Made by a program: the position numbers and the translations under genes. A stretch of 43,209 bases of DNA. Origin: Deltaproteobacteria bacterium. GTDB taxonomy: Bacteria > Myxococcota > Myxococcia > Myxococcales > 40CM-4-68-19. The notes below the pieces were generated by a model that did not search any database, was not told the origin of the DNA, and worked only from the letters and a program-made list of their open reading frames with translations. This document shows, piece after piece, positions 8,055 to 40,698 of this stretch (the first letter of the stretch is position 1; the number at the start of each line of letters is the position of its first letter). The DNA is taken from assembly GCA_005879505.1 (NCBI GenBank), contig VBKQ01000008.1, positions 1-43,209 of the forward strand, in the 5' to 3' direction.

Positions 8055-8080
8055 CGGGGCGGGAACCTAGAACGCCTCCC

Positions 8081-8110: not shown

Positions 8111-8113
8111 ATA

Positions 8114-12720: not shown

Positions 12721-12728
12721 ACCAATGT

Positions 12729-12757: not shown

Positions 12758-12764
12758 TTGATCG

Positions 12765-14444: not shown

Positions 14445-14453
14445 AGCGAAGGC

Positions 14454-15128: not shown

Positions 15129-15175
15129 GGCGCTGGACTACACCACTGCGGCACCGGTGGCCACCGCGAAGACCG

Positions 15176-18220: not shown

Positions 18221-18299
18221 CAGCGGGGGCCCCTGCGTCCATGCAAACGAAGACGAGAAACTTGCCCCGGCCGGGGCCTGCCGCCATCCTGCGCCCGCG

Positions 18300-20557: not shown

Positions 20558-20561
20558 CGCT

Positions 20562-20593
20562 GTCGGACTGTACAGTCTAAAAGCAGTAGCCGC
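20562..20593 (-). promoter_or_regulatory. Conserved intergenic block (copy B) containing the perfect 12-bp palindrome GACTGTACAGTC
   Basis: The minus strand reads GCGGCTACTGCTTTTAGACTGTACAGTCCGAC. The palindrome is at 20566-20577, 8 nt upstream of the ATG at 20557. Confidence 0.45.
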
Positions 20594-20613
20594 TAAGCCG
20601 CCTTCGGCCGCGG

Positions 20614-22131
20614 CTATGGCGCTCCCGGCAGTCCCGGGCGTGCGTAGACGATGACTTGTGGGACTTCGTCCAGGTAGAGCCCGGTCGCCGGCCGCCGGCT
20701 CCCGAATGCGTTCCAGGTTTCCGGCTCACGGTCGCGGAACTCCCGGTGCCACTGCAGGGCGACGTAATCGGCCTGCGCAGGATTCGGCGCGTACCGGATG
20801 TCTGCGCGCAGCATCCCGGCCAACTGATAGGTCCGGTAGCTCTCGATGTTCACTTCGTGGAAATACACCCGCGCTCCGGGCGGGCAATTGGCGTTCAGCC
20901 AGGGCAGCACGCCGGTCACGTTGTTCGACCAATATTGCCGCTGCATGCCGAGCGTCGCAGCGCCCGGAATGCCGCCCGAGAGCTCGCCGTAGGCGCTGGT
21001 GCCGTAGGGATGGACGTGCGCGATCTGCCAGATCCCCGCGGCGAACGTGGCGATTGCCGCCGACGCGAGCAGCCGCGGCTGCGGCGCGACCCGCGCCATC
21101 AGGGAAGCCGCCTCGGGCGCCAGCAAGGCGACGAAGGCGAGCCAGTGCTTGATGCCACCGAAGATCGGCGTGGTGCGGAGCAGGAAAGGCAGCAGCGCGG
21201 CGCCAGCGAGGCCGAGCTCGAGCAAGCGCTGGGATTCGAGCCGGCGCCGCGCGAAGCCGGCGAGAAGCGAGATCCCGGCGGCAGCGAGGAGCGCCACGGT
21301 CGGCAGCGGCAGCACCATCGCGTCGAGCACCAGCGGGTACTCGGCGGGAAAGGGCGGCGCGCGCAGCACCTGCCCGAAGTACCACCAGGCGTAGTGCACG
21401 TGGTGCGTGTGGAAGGCGATCCAGTCGCGCAGGTGCCGGGAAGGATCGTGCCAGAGCAGCGGCCAGAAGACGAACAGCACGGCGGGCGAGAGCAGGAGCC
21501 ACGGCAACTTGCGCAGGCCCGCCGTCCGCTGATCGCCCGGAAGCAGGAGCGCATGCACGAGCAACACCGGGGGCAGGAACCAGGCGTTGTGCTTGACGGC
21601 GAGCGCGAGGCCGTACGTCGCCGCCAGCCGCGGCCCGGTGCCTCGCAGCCAGGCCACGCCGACGCCCGCCCACATGGCGCAGATGGGGACGTCGAAGCAG
21701 GCGAGGTGGCCGTGGAAGAACGTCCGCTCCGAGCACCAGAAGAGGAGCGGTGCGAGCACGCCGGCGGCGCGAGACCGCGACAGCCCGAGCAGGCAGAGCC
21801 AGTAGCTGAGTAGCCCGGCGAAGGCGAACGCCGGCAGCCGCCATGCGAGCGTGTCCGGCAGGATCCCCAGCCAGGTCGTGAACACCAGGTGCGACGCAGC
21901 GAACAGCAGCTTGGTCAGGCCGGGATGCTCGAAGTTGTACGACCAGTACTGTTCCGTCTGCGCGACGGCCTGTAGCGGGGCATGCAAGAGCAGCCGGAGC
22001 CAGGCCTCGTAGCGCTGCGCGGCCGCGAAGTAATAGCCTTCGTCGCGCACGAAGCCGACCGGCGCCTGGGTCACCGCCATCGCGGCAGCGGTGAGGAATC
22101 CGAGCGTTCGCGCCAGCGCCTTGTCCGTCAT
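20614..22131 (-). CDS. GT-C fold glycosyltransferase (family 39 / ArnT-PMT-like)
   Basis: It is polytopic. It has RDEGYYF in the first loop, FEHPGLTKLL, and many TM helices. The ATG at 22131 overlaps the upstream stop (ATGA). Confidence 0.75.
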   Translation of the reverse strand: MTDKALARTLGFLTAAAMAVTQAPVGFVRDEGYYFAAAQRYEAWLRLLLHAPLQAVAQTEQYWSYNFEHPGLTKLLFAASHLVFTTWLGILPDTLAWRLPAFAFAGLLSYWLCLLGLSRSRAAGVLAPLLFWCSERTFFHGHLACFDVPICAMWAGVGVAWLRGTGPRLAATYGLALAVKHNAWFLPPVLLVHALLLPGDQRTAGLRKLPWLLLSPAVLFVFWPLLWHDPSRHLRDWIAFHTHHVHYAWWYFGQVLRAPPFPAEYPLVLDAMVLPLPTVALLAAAGISLLAGFARRRLESQRLLELGLAGAALLPFLLRTTPIFGGIKHWLAFVALLAPEAASLMARVAPQPRLLASAAIATFAAGIWQIAHVHPYGTSAYGELSGGIPGAATLGMQRQYWSNNVTGVLPWLNANCPPGARVYFHEVNIESYRTYQLAGMLRADIRYAPNPAQADYVALQWHREFRDREPETWNAFGSRRPATGLYLDEVPQVIVYARPGLPGAP

Positions 22132-22898
22132 CGCGAGGTCCAGGCCTGCAGGCAGAACGGGCGGGCCCGATCGGTCGAGGACACGGCGAAGAGGAACTCG
22201 CGCTCGGAAGCGCCGGCCGGGATCGCGACATCGAGACGCTGCCACCCGCTGCCGTCGCGCACCGTGCGCGCGACCTCCAGGGTACCGAGCGGAACGCCGT
22301 CGGCGAACACCTGCACCTCGATCGGCAGCCGATCGGCCTCGTAGGCCCGCTCGCCGATGACGCCCGCGCGCAGGTGAAGGGTCGTGCCCGCAGTGCCCCG
22401 GGCCGCGAGGCGGCCGCCGACCGGAACCTGCACGCAACGGCGCGCGACGTAGTCGACCTCATGCTGCTCGGAGGAGCGGGTGAGGTCGGCCGCGAGCGTA
22501 GCCGCGTGCAGATCCCACGCCTGCAGGGCCAGCGCCCCGAAGCGTTGTTCTTCACCATCGGGGGTGGCGCCACGCGCGCGCAGGGCGGGGCCCGGAGCGC
22601 GGAAGAACGGCGTGCGCGGGAGCGAGAGCAGCCAGAGCCGCCGCACCTCCAGGTAGTCCGCGTGCCCGAGGTCCTCCTCGGCGAGCACCGGCGCCACGTC
22701 GACGAACAGCCGGGCACGTTCCGCCCAGACCGGCCAGATCTGGACCGCGTCGCCCGCTTGCGCCCGCGCGCGCAACGCTCCGGCCGCTTCCGCCCAGTCC
22801 GCGTCGGACGGCAGGCGAAACCCCAACGTCAGATCGAAGAGGAGCGATCCCGCGCCGAGCGCGATCAGCGCGACGAAGACCGCCCTACGAAGAACCAA
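22128..22898 (-). CDS. Hypothetical membrane-anchored protein
   Basis: It has no internal Met. The TTG at 22898 is immediately followed by a TM helix (VFVALIALGAGSLLF). GC3 is high. It overlaps the carG stop by 14 nt and the GT39 start by 4 nt. Confidence 0.5.
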   Translation of the reverse strand: MVLRRAVFVALIALGAGSLLFDLTLGFRLPSDADWAEAAGALRARAQAGDAVQIWPVWAERARLFVDVAPVLAEEDLGHADYLEVRRLWLLSLPRTPFFRAPGPALRARGATPDGEEQRFGALALQAWDLHAATLAADLTRSSEQHEVDYVARRCVQVPVGGRLAARGTAGTTLHLRAGVIGERAYEADRLPIEVQVFADGVPLGTLEVARTVRDGSGWQRLDVAIPAGASEREFLFAVSSTDRARPFCLQAWTSR

Positions 22899-23418
22899 GC
22901 TTGATCTTCCGCTCGCTCTTCTCGCGGTCGAAGAGACAGAGCGCGACTTCCGGGTAGGCGGCGAAGCCTGGCGACCATCCGGGGTGCATGGCGCAGCGCG
23001 GATCGAAGCAATGGTGCAGGTCCCAGAGGTGGCCGACGTAATGCGCCGCCCGCTTCGCGAGCCCGACCTCGAGCGGCACGCCCTTGTCGGCGAGGCCGTG
23101 CGCGGTCGCGAGCGCCTTGCCGCCGCCGTACTGCGCGTACCCATCGACCGGCCCGCGCCCCATCGGACCCGGCGGCGCCGTCAGCGCTTCGGTCGTGAGA
23201 TAGAGGATCTTGTCGTCGGCGTAGAGCGTGACGTCGTCGTCCATCTCGTCGACGACCTTGACGGCGTCGTACGCCGACTGCTCGTCGTCGAGCGCATCCG
23301 CCGGAATCTCGCCTTCCCCTTCGAGCTCGCAGCCCATGCCGTACGCCGCGTGGAGCCGGCGGGTGACGAAATCGATCACGTCGGGCGGGAACTCCGACAG
23401 GGTCACGATCCGGATCAT
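22885..23418 (-). CDS. carG: CarG-like zinc-binding protein (archaemetzincin fold, with the catalytic Glu replaced)
   Basis: Contains HYVGHLWDLHHCFDPRCAM, which fits the archaemetzincin spacing HExxHxxGxxHCxxxxCxM but with E replaced by Y and G replaced by D. The ATG overlaps the carD stop (ATGA at 23415-23418). Confidence 0.7.
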   Translation of the reverse strand: MIRIVTLSEFPPDVIDFVTRRLHAAYGMGCELEGEGEIPADALDDEQSAYDAVKVVDEMDDDVTLYADDKILYLTTEALTAPPGPMGRGPVDGYAQYGGGKALATAHGLADKGVPLEVGLAKRAAHYVGHLWDLHHCFDPRCAMHPGWSPGFAAYPEVALCLFDREKSERKIKLGSS

Positions 23419-24317
23419 CGCTTCCCCTTCGCTTTCGTCTTGCCGGCGGGCTTCCTGGACGCCTTCTTCGCCGCAGCGGATTTTTTCGGGGCAGCCTTCT
23501 TCGGCGGGGCCGCTTTCTTCGGGGGCGCGGGCCTCGCCTTCCTGGCCGCCGCCGGCTTCGCCGCCTTGTGGGGCGGCTTCGACTTCTCCTTCTCCGGCGC
23601 CGGTTTGTGCGGCGCCGCCGGTGCGGCAGGCTGCTTCTCCTCTTCGTCCGACTCGTCGGCCGCCGGCGCGGCCGCTACCACGGCGCCGCCCAACTCCTCG
23701 TCCTCGAAGCCGAGGTCCTCTTCCGTCGCGGGCCGCGCGGGTGAGGGCGGACCGAGGGTCGCCGCAGGCAGCGGCCTTCCCTTGCGCGTCATGCCGGACG
23801 GTGGCCAGAGCGCATAGTCGAGATTGTCCTCGGCCACGTGCAGCGGGATGTTCATCGCCGCCGCGATCTCACCGACTAGCAGGTGGCGCGCATTGTCGTA
23901 CAGCTCGCGCTCCTTCTGCGGCAGCGGCCGCACGCGCGAGAGCGCATGCAACCCCTTGAGGACTTCCACGGTGCCGAACAAGCCGCCGCCGGTCATCCGG
24001 TCCGCGTTCTCGCGGTGGCGCACCTTCCAGTCCAGCTGTGGATCGGTGTTCGGAATCGCCAGCTCGTCGAAGACACGATCGATGGCCGCGACGTCGGCGA
24101 CCTTGCGCAGCCCGATGCCCATCACCTTGCCCTTGGGCACCATCACGGTCGCGCCGTCCTCCTCGCGCGACAACGTCACTACTTCCCAGTTCTGTCCGGC
24201 GATCTGCTTGGTCTCCACGCCCGTGATCCGGCAGATTCCCTGATTCGGATACACGACGCGGTCGCCGATGTGCAGGCTGCCGTCGCCGATGACCGGCTCG
24301 TGACTCTTGGTCGCCAT
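23415..24317 (-). CDS. carD: CarD-type transcription factor: CdnL/TRCF-RID N-domain, an acidic stretch, and a Lys/Ala/Pro-rich H1-like tail
   Basis: Contains GDRVVYPNQGICRITGVE...WEVVTL (CarD_CdnL_TRCF), then EEDLGFEDEE..DESDEEE, then KPAAARKARPAPPKKAAPPKKAAPKKSAAAKKASRKPAGKTKAKGKR. The start is ATG 24317 (MATKSHEP). Confidence 0.85.
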   Translation of the reverse strand: MATKSHEPVIGDGSLHIGDRVVYPNQGICRITGVETKQIAGQNWEVVTLSREEDGATVMVPKGKVMGIGLRKVADVAAIDRVFDELAIPNTDPQLDWKVRHRENADRMTGGGLFGTVEVLKGLHALSRVRPLPQKERELYDNARHLLVGEIAAAMNIPLHVAEDNLDYALWPPSGMTRKGRPLPAATLGPPSPARPATEEDLGFEDEELGGAVVAAAPAADESDEEEKQPAAPAAPHKPAPEKEKSKPPHKAAKPAAARKARPAPPKKAAPPKKAAPKKSAAAKKASRKPAGKTKAKGKR

Positions 24318-24327
24318 CTCCGGTCCC

Positions 24328-24357
24328 TCGCTACCGCACGGCAACACTGTATTGCAA
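24328..24357 (-). promoter_or_regulatory. Weak candidate carD promoter
   Basis: The minus strand reads TTGCAA (24357-24352), an 18-nt spacer, then TAGCGA (24333-24328). It lies 10 nt before the ATG, and the -10 lacks the final T. Confidence 0.2.
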
Positions 24358-24409
24358 GGCGGGCGGAGGTCCTTGCGCCCCCCCGGACCCTTGCACTCCG
24401 ACGCAGGGA

Positions 24410-24428
24410 TGCACAATTGAATTGCGCA
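24410..24428. promoter_or_regulatory. Imperfect 19-bp palindrome, a candidate operator upstream of the acyl-CoA dehydrogenase
   Basis: The sequence is TGCACAATT-G-AATTGCGCA, with 8 of 9 arm positions complementary. It is relatively AT-rich and lies 51 nt upstream of ATG 24479 in the divergent carD/acd region. Confidence 0.35.
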
Positions 24429-24478
24429 GGGCGTCAAAAATGCGACGGTCAACGATGCGCTGCGTTACGGAGGACTGC

Positions 24479-26260
<1,782 letters not shown>

Positions 26261-26283
26261 GCCGCGTCCTGAGACCGATCACG

Positions 26284-26326
26284 TTGTACAGTTCCGCGCA
26301 CTCTCGTGCGCGGGCGCAATGTGCGC
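26284..26326. promoter_or_regulatory. Third TGTACAGT core followed by two tandem GC hairpins
   Basis: TTGTACAGTT lies at 26284-26293. The first hairpin is CGCGCAC-TCTC-GTGCGCG (26295-26312) and the second is GCGCA-ATG-TGCGC (26314-26326). There is no U-tract. Confidence 0.35.
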
Positions 26327-26400
26327 GGTCGCCACCTCCCATCTCCTCCCACCCATGCACAGCTTTCATTCCAAGGGGCTGTCTCGGGCGAGGGGGGCGT

Positions 26401-27216
26401 GTGCGGAACTCGGAGCTGGGGCGTACTGGAGCGGTCCGGCCACTGTGGTCGGAAGCGGACAGTCTGCGCGAGCGGATCGCCGAGGCCGACTCGCTCTACG
26501 GTTTCTTCTCCTTCGATACAGCGCTCTCGCAGCGCGCGTCACACGGACACCTGAGGACCAATCCGGCAGCGAGGGCGGCGCTCATCCGCCTGTGCGCGGC
26601 GACGAGAACGCGCGGGGCCGTGCTCTCTGCGCGCAAGGTGGAGACGATGCAGCGGCGGCTGCGGTTGCACCGCCTCGCTTACGTGGGTGTGCATGGGACG
26701 GACGTGCAGGCCTATGGCTTGCGCATGGTGACCGAGCCGGACCTCGAGCTGGCGGAGAAGGCCGTGCAGAAGCTCCGGCGCGCGTGCTCGCGGCTGCCGA
26801 TCCTTCAGGCGCCGGGCATCGCCGTCGAGGATCGGACCTGGTCGCTGGTGCTTCATCTCAGGCATGCGGAGCCGCAGGCGCGAGTCGCCGCCGCCGAGGA
26901 ATTCGGCAAGCTCGTCGCGGCCGAGGAGCTGGAGCTGCGCCACACCGACGATTCCCTCGAAGCTCTTCCGCCGGGCGCCGCGATGTGGCGCGCGGTCCTC
27001 GGGCTGCTCGCCGGCATGCGCGGCGCGCTCCCGGTCTACGTCGGTGCCGGCGAAGCGAACGAGGAGGCGTTCGAGATCCTGAACCGGAGGAGCGCCATCA
27101 CGGTTCACGTCGGTCCTCCCCCCCGGACCGGCACGAACGCGCGCTGGCTGGTCGCGGATACCGGCGAGGTGATCCGGTTGATCCACTGGCTCGCCGACGC
27201 GCGCAGGCGCACGTAG
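26401..27216 (+). CDS. Trehalose-phosphatase-like (HAD-IIB fold) protein with degenerate catalytic motifs
   Basis: The overall pattern resembles OtsB (HG.., EDR/K.. in AVEDRTWSLVLHLRHA, and VYVGAGEANEEAF in place of GDDxTDE). GTG 26401 is the first usable start and follows a G-rich SD-like run. Confidence 0.5.
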   Translation: MRNSELGRTGAVRPLWSEADSLRERIAEADSLYGFFSFDTALSQRASHGHLRTNPAARAALIRLCAATRTRGAVLSARKVETMQRRLRLHRLAYVGVHGTDVQAYGLRMVTEPDLELAEKAVQKLRRACSRLPILQAPGIAVEDRTWSLVLHLRHAEPQARVAAAEEFGKLVAAEELELRHTDDSLEALPPGAAMWRAVLGLLAGMRGALPVYVGAGEANEEAFEILNRRSAITVHVGPPPRTGTNARWLVADTGEVIRLIHWLADARRRT

Positions 27217-27235
27217 ATCATGCTGCGCATGCTAG

Positions 27236-28972
27236 ATGTCCTGCGTGCGCCTCGATCCGCATAGCTACGCCGACAGCGACCAACCGCAGACGCGCGCCAT
27301 CGACCTGGCGCTGCGCGCCGATTTCCAGCACCGCACGCTCGAGGGCGAGGTCACGCTGCGCTTCGGCGAGCCCGGCGGCGGGGCGATCGACCTCGACACC
27401 AGGGAGCTGCGCATCGAGGCGGTGACGGCGCTCGAGGGCGCGCCATTGCGCTACGAGCTCGCGGCGGGCGATCCGATCCTCGGAGCGCGGCTGCGCGTGA
27501 ACCTGCCGGACGGCGCGCGCGGGTTGCGCATCCGGTACGCCACCTCTCCCACGGCGAGCGCGCTGCAATGGCTCGAGCCGCCGCAGACGGCCGGCAAGGA
27601 GCCCTTCCTCTTCTCGCAATGCCAACCCATCCACGCGCGTTCCCTGGCACCGCTGCAGGACACGCCGCGCATCCGGATCACGGTAGGCCGCGCCCGGTTC
27701 AAGGTGCCTTCGCGGCTGCGAACGCTGATGGCGGCGGCTGCCAAGGGCCGCGAGGATGCCGGCAGCGGCGAGGCGGTGGACGTCTTCGAGATGCCTCAGC
27801 CGATTCCATCCTACCTGCTCGCCTTCGCGGTCGGCGACCTGCAGCAGCGGGAGCTTTCGGCCCGGACCGCCGTCTGGGCGGAGCGCGCCGTCGTGGACGC
27901 GGCGGCATACGAGTTCGCCGGGGCCGAGGAGATGATTCGCGCCGCGGAGCAGCTGTTCGGTCCCTACGAGTGGGACCGCTACGACATCCTGGTGATGCCG
28001 CCGAGCTTTCCCTACGGCGGCATGGAGAACCCGCGGCTCACCTTCGTGACCCCTTCGGTCCTCGCAGGCGACCGGTCGCTGGTGAGCGTGATCGCGCACG
28101 AAGCTGCGCACGCCTGGACGGGCAATCTCGTCACCAACGCGAATGCCAACCACTTCTGGCTGAACGAGGGTTTCACGGTATATGCCGAGCGACGGATCCT
28201 CGAGGCGCTCGAAGGTCGCGAAACGTCAGAGCTGCACGCCGCGGCCGGGCGGCACGACCTTCAGGTAACGTTGGAGCGCTTCGCCAACCGCCCTCAGCTC
28301 ACACACCTGCGCACCGATCTACGCGGGATCGATCCGGACGAAGCGTATTCGTCGGTTCCCTACGAGAAGGGATACCTGCTGCTGCGCAAGCTGGAGGAGA
28401 CGGCGGGACGCCCGGCCTGGGACGTCTTCCTGCGCTCCTACCTCGGGCGATTCCGGTTCCAGAGCATCACCACGGATCAGTTCCTCGGATTCCTCGAGGC
28501 GGAGCTTCCCGGAGTCGCCGCGCAGGCGGGGGCGTTGGAGTACATCGACGGGCCCGGAGTGCCCGAGGGTGCGCCCCAGTCGCGCTCCGCGCGTCTCGAG
28601 CAGCTCCGCCGCGGCGAGGTCGAGCCGCGCAACCCGACCGAGCTGCTCGTCGTCCTCCAGTCGGCGCCGGCCGATCCGGCGAAGTTGCGCGAGCTCGACG
28701 CCAGATGGGGTCTGTCGCAGCGGCGCAGCCTCGAGCTGCGGCACAACTTCGTGCTCCTGCAGATCCGCGCCGGCATGCCCGAAGCAGTGGAGGCAGCCCG
28801 CCGGGTCCTGCTGGAGACCGGCCGCATGCGGTACCTGCGGCCCATCTATACCGCGCTCGCCCGCCGCGATCCGGCGGCGGCGCGGCGCATCTATGGAGAG
28901 GCGCGCGCCGGGTACCACAACATCGCGCGCACCGTCGTCGAATCGATCCTGGACGAGCAGAGCGACAAGTAG
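27236..28972 (+). CDS. M1-family zinc aminopeptidase (leukotriene A4 hydrolase-like)
   Basis: Contains the GGMENP exopeptidase motif and HEAAHAWTGNLVTN..WLNEGFTVYAE (HExxH-X18-E). Confidence 0.9.
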   Translation: MSCVRLDPHSYADSDQPQTRAIDLALRADFQHRTLEGEVTLRFGEPGGGAIDLDTRELRIEAVTALEGAPLRYELAAGDPILGARLRVNLPDGARGLRIRYATSPTASALQWLEPPQTAGKEPFLFSQCQPIHARSLAPLQDTPRIRITVGRARFKVPSRLRTLMAAAAKGREDAGSGEAVDVFEMPQPIPSYLLAFAVGDLQQRELSARTAVWAERAVVDAAAYEFAGAEEMIRAAEQLFGPYEWDRYDILVMPPSFPYGGMENPRLTFVTPSVLAGDRSLVSVIAHEAAHAWTGNLVTNANANHFWLNEGFTVYAERRILEALEGRETSELHAAAGRHDLQVTLERFANRPQLTHLRTDLRGIDPDEAYSSVPYEKGYLLLRKLEETAGRPAWDVFLRSYLGRFRFQSITTDQFLGFLEAELPGVAAQAGALEYIDGPGVPEGAPQSRSARLEQLRRGEVEPRNPTELLVVLQSAPADPAKLRELDARWGLSQRRSLELRHNFVLLQIRAGMPEAVEAARRVLLETGRMRYLRPIYTALARRDPAAARRIYGEARAGYHNIARTVVESILDEQSDK

Positions 28973-29093
28973 GCTCGCTCTTCGAAGTCGTACACTGGAC
29001 TACAGAATGTGGCGTCGCCCACCTAGCCGCAGGGGGTAGGACACCACTGAACCACTAGATATCAGGCTGATTTTTTGTTCAGGCGGAGGTTGC

Positions 29094-29122
29094 TTGACAG
29101 GCCGCTGGACCTGGTCGAGTCT
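29094..29122 (+). promoter_or_regulatory. Candidate dcw (Pmra-like) promoter
   Basis: A perfect TTGACA at 29094-29099, a 17-nt spacer, then a weak GAGTCT at 29117-29122. It sits in the lowest-GC stretch of the window, directly upstream of the MraZ boxes. Confidence 0.45.
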
Positions 29123-29129
29123 GCGCCGG

Positions 29130-29153
29130 GTGGATCGAAGTGGCATGAAGTGG
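29130..29153 (+). promoter_or_regulatory. MraZ operator: three direct GTGG repeats with exact 10-bp phasing
   Basis: GTGGA occurs at 29130, GTGGC at 29140 and GTGGA at 29150 (gGTGGAtcgaaGTGGCatgaaGTGGAatg). This matches the known GTGGG-type triple repeat with 10-bp periodicity that MraZ binds. Confidence 0.6.
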
Positions 29154-29184
29154 AATGCCGCTGCGAGGAGAGGGATCGCGCGCG

Positions 29185-29634
29185 ATGTTTTCCGGCGTCT
29201 TCCAGCACTCCATCGACGCCAAGGGGCGCACCAGCCTCCCCGCGCGCTTTCGCGAGCTGCTCGCCGCCCAGGGCGCGGACAAGCTCTTCATCACGCCAGA
29301 CCTGATCGATCCCTGTCTCGTCGCTTTCGCTCCCTCGGCCTGGCAGCAGCTGGCGGAGAAGGTCGCCGCGAAGTCGATGTTCGATCGGGACATCCGCCTG
29401 CTCTCGCGCGCCTTCATCGCACCCGCCCAGGAATGCCCGGTCGACAAGCTGGGCCGGATCCTCATCCCGCCCAGTCTGCGTGAGCACGTCGGCCTGGTCG
29501 AGGAAATCACCTGGGCGGGCACGGTGGAGCGGATCGAGATCTGGACGCCGCAGGGATGGGCCGAGGTCCAGAAGGCGGCGCGCGCGCAAGAGACGCCGCA
29601 GGACCTGGCGAGGCGGCTGAGCGAGCTTCTGTAG
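29185..29634 (+). CDS. mraZ: Transcriptional regulator MraZ
   Basis: Contains [24 protein letters not shown] and a second [15 protein letters not shown] half-domain. Confidence 0.92.
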
Positions 29635-29651
29635 ACGAGAGGGCATCGACG

Positions 29652-30062
29652 ATGGCGGACAAGTCTTTGCGAAACGGTGCAGTCCTGGCGCTCAAGCCGG
29701 CAGCGGTCCAACGGGTCGCGCGCTGGGAGGAGAGCGTCGCGACGGTGACGGTGCGCGGCGAGCTCGATCGCGAGGCGCTCTGGGCCATCGACTATTCCGT
29801 CGTGCGCGCCGCGGCGGAAGCGGGCCGCATCGTCCTCGATCTGCGCGAGGTCAGCCACCTCGACGGCTCGGCCGTGCCGGAGATCGTCGCGCGCCGGCGG
29901 GAGCTGCTCGCCCGCGGCGGCGATCTGGTGATCGCGGTGCGCAACCCCTACATCGCGAAGATCCTCAAGGCCGCCGGAGGACCCGATCTCGCCTTGGTCC
30001 GCTCGGTGGAGGAGGAGGCCGTCGCGGCTCCGGCCGCGCGGCTGCGTGCCCTGCGCAAATGA
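29652..30062 (+). CDS. STAS-domain protein (anti-sigma-factor-antagonist-like)
   Basis: It is 136 aa. [20 protein letters not shown]...[50 protein letters not shown] fits the SpoIIAA/STAS pattern. Its TGA overlaps the rsmH ATG (ATGA at 30059-30062). Confidence 0.65.
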
Positions 30063-30877
30063 ACGGATTCGCCCACCAGACCGTGCTGCGCCGCGAAACG
30101 GCCTCGCTGCTCGCCGCCGCTCCCGGGAGGGTCATCCTCGACGGGACCCTGGGCGGCGGCGGGCACGCGCAGGCGCTCCTCGACGCTGGCGCGCGGGTGG
30201 TGGGCCTCGATCAGGATCCGGCGGCGATCGCGGCGGCGCGCGCGCGCCTCTCGGGGCGCGACATCGTCGTTGCGCACGGCAACTTCCGCGATGCCCGCGC
30301 GCTGCTCGATCAGCTCGGTGTCTCCGAGGTGGACGGTGCGCTCGTCGATCTGGGCGTCTCCTCGCCCCAGCTCGACGATCCCTCGCGCGGCTTCTCCTTC
30401 CGCGCAGGTGGACCGCTCGACATGAGGATGGATCCGACGCGGGGACGGCCGCTGCGCGAGCTTCTCGACGAGTGGGACGAGAAGGCGCTGGCGCGGATCC
30501 TCGAGTCGCTCGGCGAGGAGCGGTTTGCCCGTCCAATCGCGCGCGCGATCCACAGAGCGTGGGCCGGCGAGGGGATCGCGGACACGCGCGAGCTGGCGGA
30601 GATCATTTCCGCCGCGATCCCGCGCAAGGCCTGGCCGCGCGACATCCATCCGGCGACCCGCTCGTTCCAGGCGTTGCGGATCGCGGTCAACGACGAGCTG
30701 GGAGCGCTGGGCGACTGGCTGGCGCAGCTTCCCCGGCTGGTGGCGCGCGGTGGCCGCGCGGCGGCGATCTCATTTCATTCGCTGACGAAGAAGCCGGTGG
30801 GCGCCGCGGAGGAGGAGATCTCGGCCAACCCGCGGGCCCGGAGCGCGCGGTTGCGCGCCGTGGAGCGGCTCTCATGA
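30059..30877 (+). CDS. rsmH: 16S rRNA (cytosine1402-N4)-methyltransferase RsmH, with an apparent in-frame internal deletion
   Basis: Contains [32 protein letters not shown] and [18 protein letters not shown]. After ISFHSL (to 30784) the near-universal EDRIVK... segment is absent, and the sequence resumes at [23 protein letters not shown]. Confidence 0.85.
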
Positions 30878-31231: not shown

Positions 31232-33229
31232 GTGAGGCGCTCCTGCGCACCGCAGCGGGACGGCAAGTGGATGCGCCTTCGCGCCTTCCTGCTCGGGGCC
31301 GCCCTGCTCGCGCTGTTCGGAGTCGTGCTCCTGCGCGCCGCTAAAGTGCAACTCCTCGATCGGTCGCGCCTGGCGAGGCTGCAGCGGGACCAGACCCGCA
31401 GGGAGCTGGAGTGGGTGCCCCGCCGGGGAATGATCGTCGATCGGCGCGGAGAACCGCTGGCGGTGACCCAGGATGTCGACTCGGTATTTGCCGATCCTTC
31501 GGCGTTCGAAACGCCACGCGCGCGCCAGATGGCCGCGGCACGGATCGCGGGCGCGCTGCGCCTCGATCGTGCGAGGGTCCTGGAGAAGCTCTCGCAGCCC
31601 GACCGGCGGTTCGTCTGGATCAAGCGGCGCATCGACGAAGCTTCGGCCCAGCGCGTTCGCGGGCTGGCCATCGACGGAATCGAACTGGCCAAGGAACCGA
31701 AGCGCTTTTATCCCCAGCGCGACCTCGCCGGTCACGTGCTCGGATTCGTGGGAGAAGAGAGCGGACAGGAGGGGCTGGAGCGCGAGCTCGATCAGCATTT
31801 GCGGGGGCGGAGCGTGCAGGTCCAGGCGACGCGAGACGCGCGCGGGACCATGGTCCTCGAGCACGGCGCGCCGGACCCCGCCGATCTGACCGGGGCCACG
31901 GTCACGCTTACACTGGATAGCGCGATCCAGCTCGCTGCCGAGAAGGAGCTGGCCAGGGCCGTGAAAGCCTCCGGCGCGATCGGAGGCTGGGCCGTGGTGC
32001 TCGACGTGAACACGGGCGCCGTGCTCGCGCTCGCGGGGAATCCCGCGTTCGACGCGAACAAGCCAGGACGCGACCCGATGATCTGGCGCGATCGCGCGGT
32101 CCAGGACCAGCTCGAGCCCGGCTCGACCATCAAGAGCTTCGTGCTCGCCCGCGCGCTCGAGGAAGGCGTCGTCCAGCCGGACGAGCTCCTCTATTGCGAG
32201 CACGGCGTCTGGATGCATGCGGGCAGGAAAATCCACGACACGCACCCGGTGGACTGGGCGACGCCGGCGGCGATCCTGCGGGAATCCTCCAACATCTGCG
32301 CGGCGAAAATCGGCGAGAAGTTAGGCAGGCAGAGATTGATCGAGGGCCTGCGCGCGTTCGGGTTCGGCGAAAGGACCGGGGTGGGCCTTCCCGGCGAGGC
32401 CCGCGGGGCGCTGGCGGATCCGCGGCGGATGCCGCAGATCGCCCTCTCGACCACGGCGTTCGGTCAGGGGATGAGCGCCACGGCGATGCAGACGGTAGCG
32501 GCGATGGCCGCCATCGCCAACGGGGGCGTGCTGCTGCGGCCTTTCCTCGTGCAGAAGGTCGTTGCCGCCGATGGGACGACGCTGCTCTCCCGCGGGCGAG
32601 AGGAGGTGCGCCGCGTCCTCAAGGAAGACACCGCGCGCGAGCTGACGGCGATGCTGGAGGAGGTGGTGGAGAAGGGCACCGGCACCCGTGCGGGGCTCCT
32701 CGGCCACCGCGTCGCGGGCAAGACGGGGACGGCGCAGAAGGTCGATCCGATCCGGGGCGGCTACAGCGACAAGCGGCTCGCGAGCTTCCTCGGATTCGCG
32801 CCGGCGGACGCGCCCCGGATCGCGATCCTGGTGGTCATCGACGAGCCCGAAGGAAAGGGCGCGGAAGTGGCGGGCGGGACGGTGGCTGCGCCGGCGTGGG
32901 GCGCCATCGCACACGAGGCCCTGCGCCAGCTCGACGTCATGCCCGACCAGGCGAGAGAGACTGCACCCCTCCTGGTATCGTCAGTGGGCTCCGGCGCCGG
33001 GGACGAGGTCGCGCACGAGCCGGCGGCGGAGCCGCCGATCCAGCCGGGGCGGGCGCGCGTTCCGGACGTCTCCGGCCTCGGCGCGCGCTCGGCGATGCGC
33101 CGGCTTGCGCAGTCGTCGCTGGAGCCGGAGCTCCGCGGCAGCGGCCGGGCAGTCGCGCAGTCCCCGCGCGCCGGGGCCATTGTCAAGCGGGGGGCAAGGG
33201 TGAAGGTCACTCTGGCGCCGCCGGGGTAG
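31232..33229 (+). CDS. ftsI: Peptidoglycan D,D-transpeptidase FtsI (class B PBP) with a C-terminal PASTA domain
   Basis: Contains STIKS, SSN and KTGTA. The C-terminal VPDVSGLGARSAMRRLAQSSLEPELRGSGRAVAQSPRAGAIVKRGARVKVTL is PASTA-like. The start is GTG 31232 or ATG 31271. Confidence 0.9.
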   Translation: MRRSCAPQRDGKWMRLRAFLLGAALLALFGVVLLRAAKVQLLDRSRLARLQRDQTRRELEWVPRRGMIVDRRGEPLAVTQDVDSVFADPSAFETPRARQMAAARIAGALRLDRARVLEKLSQPDRRFVWIKRRIDEASAQRVRGLAIDGIELAKEPKRFYPQRDLAGHVLGFVGEESGQEGLERELDQHLRGRSVQVQATRDARGTMVLEHGAPDPADLTGATVTLTLDSAIQLAAEKELARAVKASGAIGGWAVVLDVNTGAVLALAGNPAFDANKPGRDPMIWRDRAVQDQLEPGSTIKSFVLARALEEGVVQPDELLYCEHGVWMHAGRKIHDTHPVDWATPAAILRESSNICAAKIGEKLGRQRLIEGLRAFGFGERTGVGLPGEARGALADPRRMPQIALSTTAFGQGMSATAMQTVAAMAAIANGGVLLRPFLVQKVVAADGTTLLSRGREEVRRVLKEDTARELTAMLEEVVEKGTGTRAGLLGHRVAGKTGTAQKVDPIRGGYSDKRLASFLGFAPADAPRIAILVVIDEPEGKGAEVAGGTVAAPAWGAIAHEALRQLDVMPDQARETAPLLVSSVGSGAGDEVAHEPAAEPPIQPGRARVPDVSGLGARSAMRRLAQSSLEPELRGSGRAVAQSPRAGAIVKRGARVKVTLAPPG

Positions 33230-36227: not shown

Positions 36228-37342
36228 TGCTCTACAACCTCCTGTTCCCCTTCTCCGACCGCGTCCCGCTCTTCAACGTGCTGCGGTATCCCTCGTTCCG
36301 CATGCTGATGGCGGGGCTGGTCTCGCTGGTGATCGGCCTCTTCCTCGGCCCGAGCTACATCGACGCGCTGCGCAGGCTGCAGCACGGGGCGAGCAACGTG
36401 CGCGAGGACACGCCGGAGGCGCATCAACGGAAGGTCGGAACGCCTTCGATGGGTGGAGGCCTCATCCTCTGGGCGATGCTGGTGGGAACGCTGCTCTTCG
36501 CCGACCTGACGAACCGCATGGTCTGGGCCGCGCTGATCATCACGCTCGGCTTCGGCGCGATCGGATTCGCCGACGATTGGCTCAAGTTCAGCAAGCGCAA
36601 CTCCAAGGGGCTGGCCGGACGCAAGAAGCTGCTCTGGCAGACGATCATCTTCGTGGTGGTGGTGGCCGTCTTCTTCGTCGACTGGAAGCACGGCTCGCTC
36701 TATCTGGACACCCGCCTCGCCATCCCCTTCGTGAAGGTGAAGGCGTTCAATCCCGTCCTGCCCTGGTGGATCTACCTGCCCTTCGCCTTCGTGGTGATCG
36801 TCGGGACATCGAACGCGGTGAACCTGACCGACGGGCTCGACGGCCTCGCCATCGGTCCCACCATCGTCAGCGCGCTGACCTTCATGCTCCTCGCCTATCT
36901 CGCGGGAGCCACCATCCGAGGGCTCAACATCGCCGACTACCTGCTGATCCCGCACATCCCGGGCGCGGCGGAGCTGGCGGTGTTCTGCGCCGCCATGGCC
37001 GGAGCCGGCATCAGTTTCCTCTGGTTCAACACCTATCCGGCGACCGTGTTCATGGGCGACGTGGGATCGCTCGCCCTCGGCGGCGGCCTCGGCGCGCTCG
37101 CGGTGCTGACGAAGAACGAGGTCGACAGCGCCATCATCCACGGAGTCTTCTTCGCCGAGATCGTCTCGGTGATGCTGCAGGTGCTCTGGTTCAAGCGCAC
37201 CGGCCGCCGGATCTTCCGCATGGCTCCCATCCACCACCACTTCGAGCTGCAGGGCTGGACGGAGCCGAAGATCATCGTCCGCTTCTGGATCGTCTCCATC
37301 ATCCTGGCGCTGACCGCGCTGGCGTCGCTGAAGCTGAGATGA
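36227..37342 (+). CDS. mraY: Phospho-N-acetylmuramoyl-pentapeptide transferase
   Basis: Contains KVGTPSMGG, NAVNLTDGLDGLA and APIHHHFE. The ATG shares 1 nt with the murF TGA. Confidence 0.93.
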   Translation: MLYNLLFPFSDRVPLFNVLRYPSFRMLMAGLVSLVIGLFLGPSYIDALRRLQHGASNVREDTPEAHQRKVGTPSMGGGLILWAMLVGTLLFADLTNRMVWAALIITLGFGAIGFADDWLKFSKRNSKGLAGRKKLLWQTIIFVVVVAVFFVDWKHGSLYLDTRLAIPFVKVKAFNPVLPWWIYLPFAFVVIVGTSNAVNLTDGLDGLAIGPTIVSALTFMLLAYLAGATIRGLNIADYLLIPHIPGAAELAVFCAAMAGAGISFLWFNTYPATVFMGDVGSLALGGGLGALAVLTKNEVDSAIIHGVFFAEIVSVMLQVLWFKRTGRRIFRMAPIHHHFELQGWTEPKIIVRFWIVSIILALTALASLKLR

Positions 37343-38473
37343 ACCTCTCCGGACGACACGCCCTCGTGGTGGGCCTGGGCAAGAGCGGCGAGGCCGCCGC
37401 CCGCCTGCTTCGTTCGCGCGGCGCGCAGGTCGTAGCGGCGGACGACAAGGAGCTGCCGTTCGAGGGCGAGCTCAGGCGCGTGGCTCCGGAGTCCTTGCGC
37501 GGGATCGATCTGGTGGTGGCGAGCCCCGGCGTTCCGCTCTCGCTCCCCATCTTCATCGAGGCGCGCTCGCGTCGGATCGAGTTGATCGGGGAGGTGGAGC
37601 TGGCTTCCCGCTTCATCTCCGAGCCGATCTTCGGGATCACGGGCACCAACGGGAAGAGCACCACCACCGCGCTCTGCGGCCACCTCCTCTCCACGGCCGG
37701 ATTGCGCGTCTTCACCGGCGGAAATCTGGGCGACGCCTTGAGCAACCGCGTGCTCGCGGGCGATCGGCTCGACGCCACGGTCTGCGAGCTGTCGAGCTAC
37801 CAGCTCGAGTCGATCGTTTCGCTGCGCTGCGCGGCGGCAACGGTCCTCAACGTCACGCCGGATCACCTCGATCGGTATCCCTCGCTCGACGCCTACGCGG
37901 CGGCGAAGCAGCGCATCTTCGAGAACCAGCGCGCAGGCGACACCGCCGCGATCAACCCACAACCGCGAGAACGCGTTCGCCGCCTGCCTGCTGGCGCGGC
38001 ACCTCGGCGTCGGCTTCGATGCGCTGCAGAAGGGTCTCGACAGCTACCCGGGGCTGCCCCACCGCCTGGAGCCGGTCCGCGTGCTCGACGGGGTGGAGTG
38101 GATCAACGACTCCAAGGCGACGAACGTGGACAGCGTGGAGAAGTCGCTGAGCGCGTTCGAGGGCAACGTCCACATCATCATGGGCGGTCGCGGCAAGGGC
38201 GCACCCTATGCGCCGCTGCGCGAATTGATGCGCGGGCGGGTGAAGACGATCTTCACGATCGGCGAGGACGCCAAGGCGATCGCCTCCGAGCTGTCCGGGG
38301 CGGCGGAGATCGAGCCCTGTGGCGTGCTCGCAACCGCTGTGTTCCAGGCGCGCAAGCGCGCCCGGCGCGGTGACGTGGTGCTGCTCTCGCCCGCCTGCGC
38401 CTCCTACGATCAGTTCCGCAACTTCGAAGACCGGGGCGATCAGTTCAAGGCCCTCGTGCGGGGGCTCTCGTGA
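37339..38473 (+). pseudogene. murD: murD (UDP-MurNAc-L-Ala--D-Glu ligase) disrupted by an internal deletion plus a frameshift near 37956/37958
   Basis: The N-part (frame of 37339) has GLGKSG, GITGTNGKSTT, NVTPDHLDRY and RIFENQRAGDTAAIN. The C-part is in a different frame from 37958 and has HNRENAFAACLLARHLGV, PGLPHRLE, WINDSKATN and SPACASYDQF. The segment normally between ..N(A)DD.. and ..G.HN.. is absent; it is about 55 aa in E. coli MurD as I recall it. Confidence 0.8.
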
Positions 38474-39568
38474 GCGCGTCGGCCGTCGCCGGAGCGCGCG
38501 TGGCCCGCCAGCGGGCAGAGCAGCTGCGGCCGGTGCTGCGCTACGACCCGGTGCTGCTCGCGGCCGTGCTGCTGCTCCTCGCCTTCGGCGTCGTCATGGT
38601 CTACAGCGCGAGCGCGGTCTACGCCGGCGCGCGCCTGGGCGACCCGCTCTGGTTCCTCAAGCGGCAGGCCGCGGCGGCCCTGGTCGGGCTCGTCGCGTTG
38701 CTCGGCGCGATGAGGCTCGGCTACCGCCGCCTGGAGGCGCTCGTCGTTCCCCTGGTGTTCGTCTCGCTCGCGCTGCTCCTCTGCGTGCACGTGCCCGGGC
38801 TCGGTCATAGCGCGGGCGGCGCGACGCGCTGGCTACGGATCGGCCCGCTGACCTGCCAGCCCAGCGAGCTGGCGAAGATCGCGCTGGTACTCTGGCTCGC
38901 GCGCTCGCTGGCGAAGAAGCAGGACCGCATCCGTTTCTTCTCGGTGGGGGTCTTGCCTCATCTCACGGTGCTGGCGATCTTCGCTCTGTTCTTGATGCTC
39001 GAGCCGGACTTCGGAACGACCGCCGTCCTCGGCGGCGTCTCTTTCGCGGAAGTCTCCGTACCGCATCCAGCGCATCCTCGCCTTCCTCGATCCCTGGAAG
39101 GATCCGAGGGGACACGGCTACCAGACCGTGGAATCGCTCCTGGCGTTCGGGGCCGGCGGCTCGTTCGGCGTCGGACTGGGAGAAAGCCACCAGAAGCTGT
39201 TCTTCCTTCCCGCAGCGCACACCGACTTCATCCTCAGCATCGTCGGCGAGGAGCTGGGGTTCGCGGGCGTGGCGGCGGTGCTGGTGCTCTTTGCGGCGGT
39301 CGTCTGGCGCGGGATCCGCGCGGCGTACTGCGCGGCGGACGCCTTCGGATGCTGGGCGGCGCTCGGGTTGACCCTTCTGCTCGGGGTGGAAGCGCTGGTG
39401 AACGCGGGGATGGCGCTCGCGCTGCTTCCCACCAAGGGGATGGCGCTGCCGTTCCTCTCCTACGGGATGTCGTCGGTGATCGCCTCCTGCATCGCGGCCG
39501 GCATCCTGCTCTCCGTCAGCGGCGGCCCCGGTGGCTTCCTCCGCCGGGCCTCGGGAGCACAGCGATGA
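38470..39568 (+). pseudogene. ftsW: ftsW (SEDS peptidoglycan polymerase) disrupted by an internal deletion plus a frameshift near 39046-39050
   Basis: The N-part (frame of 38470) runs to ...QPSELAKIALVLW...EPDFGTTAVLGGVSFA. The C-part is in another frame and reads KSPYRIQRILAFLDPWKDPRGHGYQ...AAHTDFI...LPTKGMALPFLSYG. About one TM segment is missing between them. The frameshift is why the track shows a 742-aa ftsW-murG fusion ORF. Confidence 0.8.
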
Positions 39569-40698
39569 GGCTCCTCGTCGCAGGCGGCGGCACCGGTGGC
39601 CATCTCTTCCCCGGCCTGGCGCTGGGGGAAGAGGTGAAGACCCGCCATCCGCGCAACGACGTGCTGTTCGTCGGATCGGCGCGGGGGATCGAGGCGCGCG
39701 AGGTGCCGAAGGCGGGATATCCGCTGGAGATCATCGACGTCGGTCCGCTCAAGCGGATCGGCCTGCTCGGTTTCCTCATGGGCCTGTTTCGCCTTCCTCG
39801 CGCCTTCTGGCAATCGATGAAGGTCCTGCGGAAGTTCGATCCCGACGTGGTGATCGGCGTCGGCGGCTACTCGAGCGGGCCGGTGCTCCTCGTCGCCTGC
39901 CTGATGCGCAAGCCCACCGCGATCCAGGAGCAGAACGCCCTTCCCGGGTTCACCAACCGTACGCTGGGGCATTTCGTCGACGCCGTGTTCATCGCCTTTC
40001 CGCAGGCGGGGCGCGCGTTTGCCCCCCGCAAGACGCATCTGCTCGGCAACCCGATCCGCCGCGCGTTCCTCGACAACTACCTGCATACCAAGCCGGCGAC
40101 GGACCGGCTGAGCATCTTGGTGACCGGCGGATCTCAAGGAGCCCACCCCCTCAACCTGCGCGTGGCGGAGGCGCTGGAGATCCTCGGCCCGCAGATCGGC
40201 CCCCGCGTCCAGGTCCTGCACCAGACGGGCAGCAAGGACCAGCCGGAGATCGCGGCGCGGTACGAAAAGCTCCAGTCGACGGGCCTGGCCGTCCAGGCCG
40301 TCGCATTCATCGACGACATGGCGCGCGCGTACGCGGGCGCGGACCTCCTGGTCTGCCGGGCGGGGGCCACCACCATCGCGGAGCTGACCGTCTGCAAGAA
40401 GCCGGCGATCCTGGTGCCTTTCCCGTTTGCCGCCGACGACCACCAGACCGTCAACGCGCAGAGCCTGGTCGAGGCGGGGGCCGCGCTGCTGATGCCGGAA
40501 AAGGACCTGACGGCGCAAAAGCTCGCCGACGCCGTCCGGGGGTTGGAAGGCGACCGCTCGAGGCTGCAGCGCATGGCCCGGGCGAGCGGGGTCCTGGGGC
40601 GGCCGGAGGCGGCCCGGGAGATCGCGGACGTCTGCGTTTCACTCTGCAGGGACCGTCTGGTCCGGGAGGGGAGGCACCTGCCGCCGGCACCGAGATGA
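39565..40698 (+). CDS. murG: UDP-GlcNAc--undecaprenyl-PP-MurNAc-pentapeptide GlcNAc transferase
   Basis: Contains MRLLVAGGGTGGHLFPGLAL, GGYSSGP and TGGSQGA. The ATG at 39565 overlaps the stop of the ftsW C-part (ATGA). Confidence 0.92.
   Translation: MRLLVAGGGTGGHLFPGLALGEEVKTRHPRNDVLFVGSARGIEAREVPKAGYPLEIIDVGPLKRIGLLGFLMGLFRLPRAFWQSMKVLRKFDPDVVIGVGGYSSGPVLLVACLMRKPTAIQEQNALPGFTNRTLGHFVDAVFIAFPQAGRAFAPRKTHLLGNPIRRAFLDNYLHTKPATDRLSILVTGGSQGAHPLNLRVAEALEILGPQIGPRVQVLHQTGSKDQPEIAARYEKLQSTGLAVQAVAFIDDMARAYAGADLLVCRAGATTIAELTVCKKPAILVPFPFAADDHQTVNAQSLVEAGAALLMPEKDLTAQKLADAVRGLEGDRSRLQRMARASGVLGRPEAAREIADVCVSLCRDRLVREGRHLPPAPR

What the first reader, a model, noticed from the sequence alone, without database searches (positions are those of the whole stretch)
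39030..39065. ftsW is broken by loss of about one TM segment plus a frameshift, creating a false 742-aa ftsW-murG fusion ORF
The frame from 38470 is authentic FtsW up to EPDFGTTAVLGGVSFA (about 39046). The authentic continuation, KSPYRIQRILAFLDPWKDPRGHGYQ...HTDFI...LPTKGMALPFLSYG, lies in a different frame (shifted forward by one base) from about 39050. Compared with E. coli FtsW as I recall it, about 27 residues (MLFLAGAKLW...LLILAE) are missing. GTCTC occurs on both sides of the junction (39037-39041 and 39052-39056). This has the same signature as the murD lesion: a deletion whose length is congruent to 2 mod 3.
Basis: partly seen in the sequence, partly recalled or inferred. Interest (0 to 1): 0.7.

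Follow-up and report, generated by a model that had tools for sequence, protein, structure and literature searches.

The report
Assembly gap breaks ftsW gene
The cell-division gene ftsW in this soil-bacterium contig really does lack 83 bases and is frameshifted, but ten other assemblies of the same population carry the gene intact, so the break is almost certainly a metagenome-assembly error and not biology.

Summary
ftsW reads in one frame from 38470 to 39048 and continues one base forward from 39050 to 39568. Exactly 83 bp (27 codons plus 2 nt, residues 194-221) are missing at 39048|39049. The out-of-frame read-through merges with murG and gives a spurious 742-aa ORF.

The cause is very probably technical.
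- Ten contigs from ten other assemblies of the same soil population (97-99.9% identical) hold both flanks with the 83 bp between them. None holds the junction.
- One of them (L107) is the same haplotype as the window and is intact.
- All 80 species-level relatives keep the 28 residues in one frame.
- The window has three private clean losses: 108 bp in rsmH, 128 bp in murD and 83 bp in ftsW. It has no small indels against its best reference, and the breakpoints have 0-2 bp of microhomology.
- The window has no N runs. Sister scaffolds carry N-gaps at about the same rate (1 per 9.6 kb), and those gaps hide 84-403 bp.
- Differences downstream of the lesions remain mostly synonymous.

The window is a whole GenBank MAG contig, probably an IDBA-UD scaffold that went through automated error correction. 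The GTCTC pair is chance.

Verdict: a local mis-assembly or collapsed scaffold gap, of low interest.

The parts
38470..39048 (+). ftsW N-terminal part (codons 1-193). It starts at GTG 38470, overlapping the murD stop, and ends exactly at a codon boundary (…SFA).
   Evidence: It is 99% identical to the intact 393-aa FtsW P0121. There are two private non-synonymous changes, at 38966 (M166T) and 38989 (L174F).
39048..39049 (+). Junction. 83 bp present in all sister contigs are absent here (CTGCTGTTCACCGCCGGC…GGTCCTGATCTG). They encode residues 194-221, which cover the end of predicted TM6, the loop and all of TM7.
39050..39568 (+). ftsW C-terminal part (residues 222-393 plus stop), in the +1 frame relative to the N-part. 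It contains the large extracellular loop with HTDF (D280) and TM8-10.
   Evidence: It is 100% identical in protein to P0121, with 4 synonymous differences from L002.
38470..40698 (+). Spurious 742-aa ORF: FtsW N-part, then out-of-frame read-through of the C-part (no stop codon, 70% GC), then MurG in frame.
   Evidence: This product is not on record in the gene-position index, and no identical fusion appeared in a protein search with the fusion as query.
39565..40698 (+). murG (377 aa), intact. Its ATG overlaps the ftsW stop (ATGA).
37339..38473 (+). murD, with a private 128-bp loss at 37957|37958 (frameshift). The intact gene encodes 420 aa.
30059..30877 (+). rsmH, with a private in-frame 108-bp loss at 30783|30784. 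This removes 36 aa starting within the SFHSLEDR motif.
   Evidence: The 272-aa product is deposited as TMB14944.1.

Best explanation
The organism has an ordinary, intact ftsW. This gene encodes a SEDS-family peptidoglycan glycosyltransferase of 393 aa that works with FtsI in the divisome, and it sits between murD and murG in the dcw cluster.

The 83-bp hole at 39048|39049 is a defect of the deposited contig. The window is a complete 43,209-bp metagenome-assembled contig. At three places (rsmH 30783, murD 37957, ftsW 39048), a stretch of 83-128 bp that the assembler could not resolve in a strain-mixed, 70% GC population was dropped, and the two ends were abutted. This could have happened through a wrong scaffold join, an automated 'scaffolding error' repair, or removal of an N-gap.

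Because 83 is 2 mod 3, the N-terminal frame slides into the murG frame. At this GC content it meets no stop codon, which produces the false 742-aa ORF.

Shown: the exact lesion, that it is private to this contig, and that the same haplotype exists intact elsewhere. Inferred: which step of the pipeline produced it.
For: (1) Ten contigs from ten different assemblies or samples hold both flanks with exactly 83 bp (ftsW) and 128 bp (murD) between them. None holds either junction 24-mer. Two of two contigs are intact at rsmH.

(2) L107 differs from the window at only 6 of 2,496 aligned bases, so it is the same haplotype, yet it is intact at both sites. Three of the six mismatches cluster 59-82 bp left of the ftsW junction.

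(3) The 90%-identity clusters have 88 FtsW members and 68 MurD members. All listed members that span the site keep the segment (393 aa and 420 aa).

(4) All 80 GTDB species-level relatives have the 28 residues in one frame, 78 of them without any gap. P. aeruginosa FtsW (8bh1) aligns without gaps across the segment.

(5) The window has three private clean losses of 108, 128 and 83 bp and no other indel against L002 over 11.4 kb. Breakpoint microhomology is 0-2 bp.

(6) Sister scaffolds carry 9 N-gaps in 86.6 kb (1 per 9.6 kb), hiding 84-403 bp. The window has 0 N and 3 lesions in 43 kb, so the rate and length scale match.

(7) Other assemblies have their own private frameshifting losses: L088 lacks 17 bp in ftsI, which gives a 1166-aa ftsI-murE call, and L096 lacks 58 bp.

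(8) Downstream of the lesions, differences from relatives stay mostly synonymous: ftsW C-part 4 synonymous to 0 non-synonymous, murD C-part 12 to 4, compared with intact murG at 10 to 2.

(9) The window equals a whole GenBank MAG contig (TMB14944.1 and TMB14946.1, contig length 43209). Sister MAG and sample names point to the Angelo meadow soil study, which used IDBA-UD scaffolds followed by automated correction of scaffolding errors (PMC6784897). Such correction fixes errors or replaces them with Ns (PMC5220378). Local assembly errors are described as prominent in IDBA-UD assemblies (PMC7111523).
Against: - No reads were available, so lack of read support across the junction has not been shown.
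- The three lesions lie within 8.3 kb of one functionally coherent cluster, and none was found in the other roughly 24.6 kb (7,995 bp against L100 plus 16.6 kb of 14183-30783) that could be compared. This is not statistically unusual (about 0.16 for the span of three random events), but a biological reading could also point to it.
- A de Bruijn assembler should not create a junction with no k-mer support, so an extra step (scaffold join, repair or N removal) has to be assumed.
- The link between this contig and the cited study is inferred from accession ranges and sample names. It was not read from the record.
Confidence: 0.85

Rival explanations
1. The deletions are real. One strain of this soil Myxococcota population recently lost 83 bp of ftsW, 128 bp of murD and 108 bp of rsmH, so ftsW and murD are fresh pseudogenes. 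The lineage would be a defective dead end, or one that gets by with another SEDS protein or without normal wall synthesis.
For: The lesions are in the deposited sequence; the 272-aa RsmH is in GenBank. They cluster in one functional gene cluster. Two private non-synonymous changes lie just upstream of the ftsW junction. Natural length polymorphisms do exist in this population, for example a 33-bp in-frame loss flanked by a 6-bp repeat in L089.
Against: - The junction is in 0 of 10 other assemblies, and the same haplotype is intact in L107.
- Three repeat-free deletions of about 100 bp with no small indels, at only about 0.7% nucleotide divergence, is not a natural mutation spectrum.
- murD and ftsW are normally essential, and no second SEDS gene is in the window.
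- There is no relaxation of selection downstream.
- Other assemblies show analogous private lesions in other essential genes, which points to a technical process.
Confidence: 0.08
2. The gene is functional as written. Either a programmed +1 frameshift at the junction gives a shortened FtsW, or the two pieces are made and work as a split protein.
For: Both pieces are individually well conserved. A GTG-initiated 146-aa ORF (39128-39568) exists in the C-part frame.
Against: - Even if the two parts were rejoined in frame, the product would lack the end of TM6 and all of TM7. Both hydrophobic peaks vanish, so the catalytic loop and TM8-10 would be inverted in the membrane.
- No relative at any distance has this architecture: 80 of 80 are single-frame with the segment.
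- The 146-aa ORF starts inside the extracellular loop.
- The twin lesion in murD would need the same special pleading.
Confidence: 0.01
3. The sister contigs carry an insertion, and the window shows the ancestral state.
For: None beyond the bare indel.
Against: The 28 residues are present and conserved in all 80 species-level relatives and in P. aeruginosa FtsW. Without them the frame is broken.
Confidence: 0

Closest known systems
Local assembly errors and scaffolding-gap artefacts in metagenome-assembled genomes (Chen et al. 2020, Genome Res, PMC7111523)
   Same: The lesion is private to one assembly. It sits in a strain-heterogeneous population. There are several per contig, on the length scale of reads or scaffold gaps. 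They yield truncated or fused gene calls in public databases. The likely source pipeline used an IDBA-UD scaffolder plus automated repair.
   Different: The described errors are usually unsupported sequence, N-gaps or wrong repeat numbers. Here the result is a clean abutment with no Ns, and the exact generating step is not identified.
FtsW, a SEDS-family peptidoglycan glycosyltransferase (Pfam PF01098; P. aeruginosa FtsW structures 8bh1 and 25hr)
   Same: The two halves match PF01098 (E 1e-37 and 5e-57). The intact sister protein matches solved FtsW at E 1e-68. The gene lies in the murD-ftsW-murG context.
   Different: In the record the gene is split over two frames and lacks residues 194-221. 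The real gene is almost certainly an ordinary full-length member.
Frameshifted pseudogenes of cell-wall genes in reduced or wall-less bacteria
   Same: An out-of-frame internal deletion in ftsW and murD.
   Different: There is no population support, no further decay and no relaxed selection. The neighbouring mur and fts genes are intact, and the same haplotype exists intact.

Membership tests
FtsW/SEDS (PF01098) | Significant match to the FTSW_RODA_SPOVE profile | tested here: met
   130 bits for the N-part (profile 4-163) and 194 bits for the C-part (profile 194-351), against a cut-off of 26.4.
FtsW/SEDS (PF01098) | One continuous reading frame covering all ten transmembrane segments and the catalytic loop | tested here: not met
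   the window has two frames, and residues 194-221 (end of TM6 and all of TM7) are absent. The feature is met in sister contigs of the same population.
FtsW/SEDS (PF01098) | Homology to experimentally solved FtsW rather than RodA | tested here: met
   FtsW 25hr and 8bh1 at E 8e-69 and 1e-68, versus RodA at 1e-47 (query was the intact sister protein P0121).
FtsW/SEDS (PF01098) | dcw-cluster position between murD and murG, with ftsI upstream | tested here: met
Genuine pseudogene (real deletion in the organism) | The same junction seen in independent sequence data from the population | tested here: not met
   0 of 10 contigs hold it; the junction DNA is absent from genome contigs, the window's fusion ORF, 146-aa ORF and MurG product are not on record, and no identical fusion protein was found.
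Genuine pseudogene (real deletion in the organism) | Read-level support across the junction in the source sample | not testable with these tools
   No reads are available.
Genuine pseudogene (real deletion in the organism) | Relaxed selection or further decay downstream of the lesion | tested here: inconclusive
   4 synonymous to 0 non-synonymous (ftsW C-part) and 12 to 4 (murD C-part), similar to intact neighbours. The counts are small, and a very recent event could not be excluded by this test alone.
Local mis-assembly / collapsed scaffold gap | Lesion private to one assembly while the same haplotype is intact in another | tested here: met
   L107 has 6 mismatches in 2,496 bp and is intact at both sites.
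Local mis-assembly / collapsed scaffold gap | Several lesions per contig at the rate and size of scaffold gaps, with no mutational signature | tested here: met
   three losses of 83-128 bp with 0-2 bp microhomology. Sister scaffolds have 1 N-gap per 9.6 kb, hiding 84-403 bp.
Local mis-assembly / collapsed scaffold gap | No perfectly matching read spans the junction | not testable with these tools
   This needs the raw reads (BioProject PRJNA449266, if the inferred source is right).

The most novel reading that the evidence does not exclude
The three deletions are real and recent. A strain of an uncultured soil Myxococcota species reached an abundance high enough to assemble while lacking functional MurD, FtsW and full-length RsmH. 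That would imply division and wall synthesis by another route, or a cheater or dependent life style.
Probability: 0.06. Interest if true: 0.45.

Novelty: not a real feature. Interest (0 to 1): 0.07.

Why it matters
The main value is as a caution. The deposited MAG contig carries at least three silent sequence losses in conserved genes. They break two essential genes (murD and ftsW), shorten a third protein that was deposited as if normal (RsmH, 272 aa instead of 308) and create a fake 742-aa 'FtsW-MurG fusion' ORF. Anyone who mines such contigs for pseudogenes, gene fusions or loss of cell-wall genes would be misled. If the lesions were real, they would be a striking loss of essential division genes, but the evidence points strongly the other way.

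Tried and rejected
1. I first thought the 1,091-bp piece between the murD and ftsW junctions was a separately assembled contig from another strain, making the scaffold chimeric. The reason was that the window switches from the L002 haplotype to the L007 haplotype at 38161-38371. I rejected this as an argument because L107 carries the same mosaic haplotype in one intact contig.

2. I considered replication slippage between the GTCTC copies or other repeats. Microhomology at the breakpoints is 1 bp (ftsW), 0 bp (murD) and 2 bp (rsmH), the GTCTC copies are out of register, and such pairs occur at 21% of random positions.

3. I tried to find the window's own junction or products elsewhere. The junction pattern is absent from genome contigs. 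The 742-aa fusion, the 146-aa ORF, MurG and the 272-aa RsmH are not in the gene-position index. A protein search with the fusion returned no identical fusion. Its candidate list was swamped by low-complexity words and did not even list the known 99% relatives, so that search was not informative.

4. I looked for a second SEDS gene in the window with tblastn and found none. The rest of the genome is not available.

5. I checked for unusual GC content or hypervariability in the lost segments as a cause of contig breaks. They are 71-75% GC against 70% overall and nearly invariant among relatives, so this gave no explanation.

6. The clustering of the three lesions within 8.3 kb is not significant for three events.

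Full report
**What is in the sequence.** The window is 43,209 bp, 69.7% GC, with no N. Its last 14 kb is a standard dcw cluster: mraZ, a STAS-domain gene, rsmH, ftsL-like, ftsI, murE, murF, mraY, murD, ftsW, murG, murC, murB.

The frame opened by GTG 38470 encodes FtsW up to ...EPDFGTTAVLGGVSFA, whose last codon is 39046-39048. After that it becomes Arg/Gly/Pro-rich nonsense. The frame one base forward encodes KSPYRIQRILAFLDPWKDPRGHGYQ...AAHTDFI...LPTKGMALPFLSYG... from 39050 to TGA at 39566-39568.

Pfam PF01098 matches the first piece at profile positions 4-163 (E 1e-37) and the second at 194-351 (E 5e-57). About 30 profile positions are therefore missing between them.

The 742-aa ORF 38470..40698 is real as an ORF. 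The shifted N-terminal frame happens to be the murG frame (ftsW and murG overlap by ATGA), and the 172 out-of-frame codons contain no stop.

**Exact size and position of the lesion.** A look-up of the window's MurC found six metagenome contigs that are 98-99.5% identical. In those that span the region, ftsW is a 393-aa gene and murD a 420-aa gene.

BLAST and direct inspection show that the window lacks exactly 83 bp at 39048|39049 and exactly 128 bp at 37957|37958 in murD. Both lengths are 2 mod 3. The best reference, L002 (99.3% identical), shows no other indel over 11.4 kb.

The missing FtsW residues are 194-221, LLFTAGARLSHLLAVAGAAAPVLAVLIW.

A hydropathy scan of the intact protein places these residues over the end of one hydrophobic helix (181-199) and all of the next (202-220). 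Both peaks disappear if the halves are joined. In the ten-helix SEDS topology, which I take from my knowledge of the RodA and FtsW structures, these are TM6 and TM7, just before the large extracellular loop. That loop carries the conserved HTDF aspartate (D280 here), which lies downstream of the frameshift.

P. aeruginosa FtsW (8bh1, 25hr; E about 1e-68) aligns across this segment without a gap.

**The GTCTC detail.** GTCTC is present at both stated positions. In the intact sequence, however, the two copies lie 12 nt before the left breakpoint and 3 nt after the right one, and both survive. True breakpoint microhomology is 1 bp for ftsW and 0 bp for murD. In addition, 21% of random positions in the window share some 5-mer within 15 nt on each side. 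The pair is a coincidence.

**Is the lesion in the population?** I collected every contig I could reach that covers the site. These are ENA re-assemblies named CRIT18-1_SAMN089028xx, two k141 MEGAHIT-style contigs and one JGI contig.

Ten contigs from ten different assemblies or samples contain both 24-nt flanks of the ftsW junction with the 83 bp between them, and both flanks of the murD junction with 128 bp between them. None contains either junction.

The 90%-identity protein clusters hold 88 FtsW and 68 MurD members. All listed members that span the sites are full length.

The most telling contig is L107 (SAMN08902861 scaffold_82120). It differs from the window at only 6 of 2,496 aligned bases, so it is the same haplotype, yet it is intact at both sites. 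Three of the six mismatches (38966, 38979, 38989) sit together 59-82 bp left of the ftsW junction. Two of these are private to the window and non-synonymous (M166T, L174F).

At greater distance, all 80 species-level relatives fetched from GTDB genomes (Myxococcota soil MAGs; best 81% aa identity) encode the 28 residues in a single frame, 78 of them with no gap at all. The segment is ancestral and conserved.

**The lesion is one of a set.** Comparison of the rest of the window with further sister contigs turned up a third private loss. It is 108 bp (in frame, 36 aa, starting inside the conserved SFHSLEDR motif) in rsmH at 30783|30784, with 2 bp of microhomology.

The contig thus has three clean losses of 83-128 bp within 8.3 kb. 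I found no private loss of this kind in the other roughly 24.6 kb that could be compared.

Sister assemblies have defects of their own:
- L088 lacks 17 bp of ftsI, which produces a 1166-aa 'ftsI-murE' gene call.
- L096 lacks 58 bp of an acyl-CoA dehydrogenase gene.
- The CRIT18-1 scaffolds carry 9 N-gaps in 86.6 kb, or 1 per 9.6 kb. Where the mapping is clear, these gaps hide 84-403 bp.

The window has no N at all and one lesion per about 14 kb, on the same length scale. This population is evidently hard to assemble. The window's lesions look like the same gaps with the Ns gone, or like joins made across them.

**Selection.** Downstream of the frameshifts, where a real pseudogene would be free to drift, the differences from relatives remain mostly synonymous. 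The counts are 4 to 0 against L002 for the ftsW C-part and 12 to 4 for the murD C-part, compared with 10 to 2 in intact murG. The numbers are small, but they give no sign of decay.

**Where the window comes from.** An exact look-up shows that the window's FtsI is TMB14946.1 and its 36-aa-deleted RsmH (272 aa) is TMB14944.1. Both are labelled 'MAG... [Deltaproteobacteria bacterium]' on a contig of 43,209 bp, which is the window's own length. The lesions are therefore in the GenBank record and were not introduced later.

The window's MurG and the MurD C-terminal fragment are not in the protein collection. That fits annotation of these genes as pseudogenes, which is my inference.

Related MAG contigs are named 14_0927_12_20cm_scaffold_..., and the re-assembled samples are SAMN089028xx. 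This matches the Angelo meadow soil study (PMC6784897, BioProject PRJNA449266). [quoted passage not shown]

That laboratory's correction script 'corrected or replaced with Ns' local scaffolding errors (PMC5220378). Chen et al. [quoted passage not shown] The link between this particular contig and that study is inferred. I did not read it from the record.

**Explanation and rivals.** The best explanation (about 0.85) is that the organism's ftsW is intact and ordinary, and that the 83-bp hole is a local mis-assembly or collapsed scaffold gap in the MAG contig, as are the murD and rsmH holes.

The main rival (about 0.08) is that the deletions are real and recent in one strain. Against it:
- The junction is absent from all other assemblies.
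- The same haplotype exists intact.
- Three repeat-free deletions of about 100 bp and no small indels at about 0.7% divergence is an unnatural spectrum.
- Both genes are normally essential.
- Analogous private lesions occur in other assemblies.

A recoding or split-gene reading (about 0.01) fails because TM7 would still be missing and no relative has such an architecture. The reading that the window is ancestral and the relatives carry an insertion is refuted by conservation.

Only read mapping or PCR can close the question. The exact test is given under decisive next steps.

**Comparison with what is known, and verdict.** Functionally the locus is a normal FtsW (SEDS, PF01098) gene. As written in the record, it fails the single-frame and ten-helix criterion only because of the lesion.

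The phenomenon itself belongs to the known class of local assembly errors in metagenome-assembled genomes. It is not a new biological feature. I score interest at 0.07.

The practical value is as a warning about pseudogene, gene-loss and gene-fusion calls from this contig and probably from the rest of this MAG.

Noticed in passing
window 37957|37958 (murD) and 30783|30784 (rsmH): There are two further clean losses that no sister contig shares. One is 128 bp (frameshift) in murD. The other is 108 bp (in frame, 36 aa starting within the SFHSLEDR motif) in rsmH. The shortened RsmH is deposited as a normal protein (TMB14944.1).
   Followed up: yes
window 29652-30062: A STAS-domain gene (anti-sigma-factor-antagonist type, 136 aa) sits between mraZ and rsmH inside the dcw cluster, in the window and in all sister contigs. 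This is an unusual passenger for that position.
   Followed up: no
window 11669-13757: This block is only 78% identical to sister scaffold L094, while the flanks are 96-99% identical. It covers a TruD gene and a roughly 560-aa protein with no Pfam hit. It could be a divergent allele, a recombination block or a strain-variable locus.
   Followed up: no
L088 around locus position 6100 (window 32691-32707); L096 at window 24990-25047: Other public assemblies of the same population have their own private frameshifting losses. L088 lacks 17 bp in ftsI, giving a 1166-aa ftsI-murE gene call. L096 lacks 58 bp in an acyl-CoA dehydrogenase gene. This suggests the population is systematically mis-assembled.
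   Followed up: partly
window 8056: The window has one extra G relative to L100, near the 5' end of the minus-strand gene 7080-8111. This changes its N-terminus (324-329 aa against 343 aa). Only one reference covers the site.
   Followed up: no
window 17795-17803 and 23288-23320: There are length polymorphisms among assemblies. One is about 30 bp in the class A PBP gene. The other is a 33-bp in-frame indel flanked by a 6-bp direct repeat (TCGAGC) and looks like a genuine slippage variant.
   Followed up: partly
proteins P0003, P0004, P0005, P0009, P0010, P0065, P0094, P0120: The protein database holds many two-domain FtsW+MurG proteins of 620-950 aa from other organisms. Some, at about 770 aa, could be true in-frame fusions arising through the ATGA overlap. 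Others may be the same kind of artefact as here.
   Followed up: no
window 38161-38371: A haplotype block in the murD 3' part matches L007 (17 differences from L002), while the flanks match L002. The same mosaic is present in L107, so it is a real recombinant haplotype and not an assembly chimera.
   Followed up: yes
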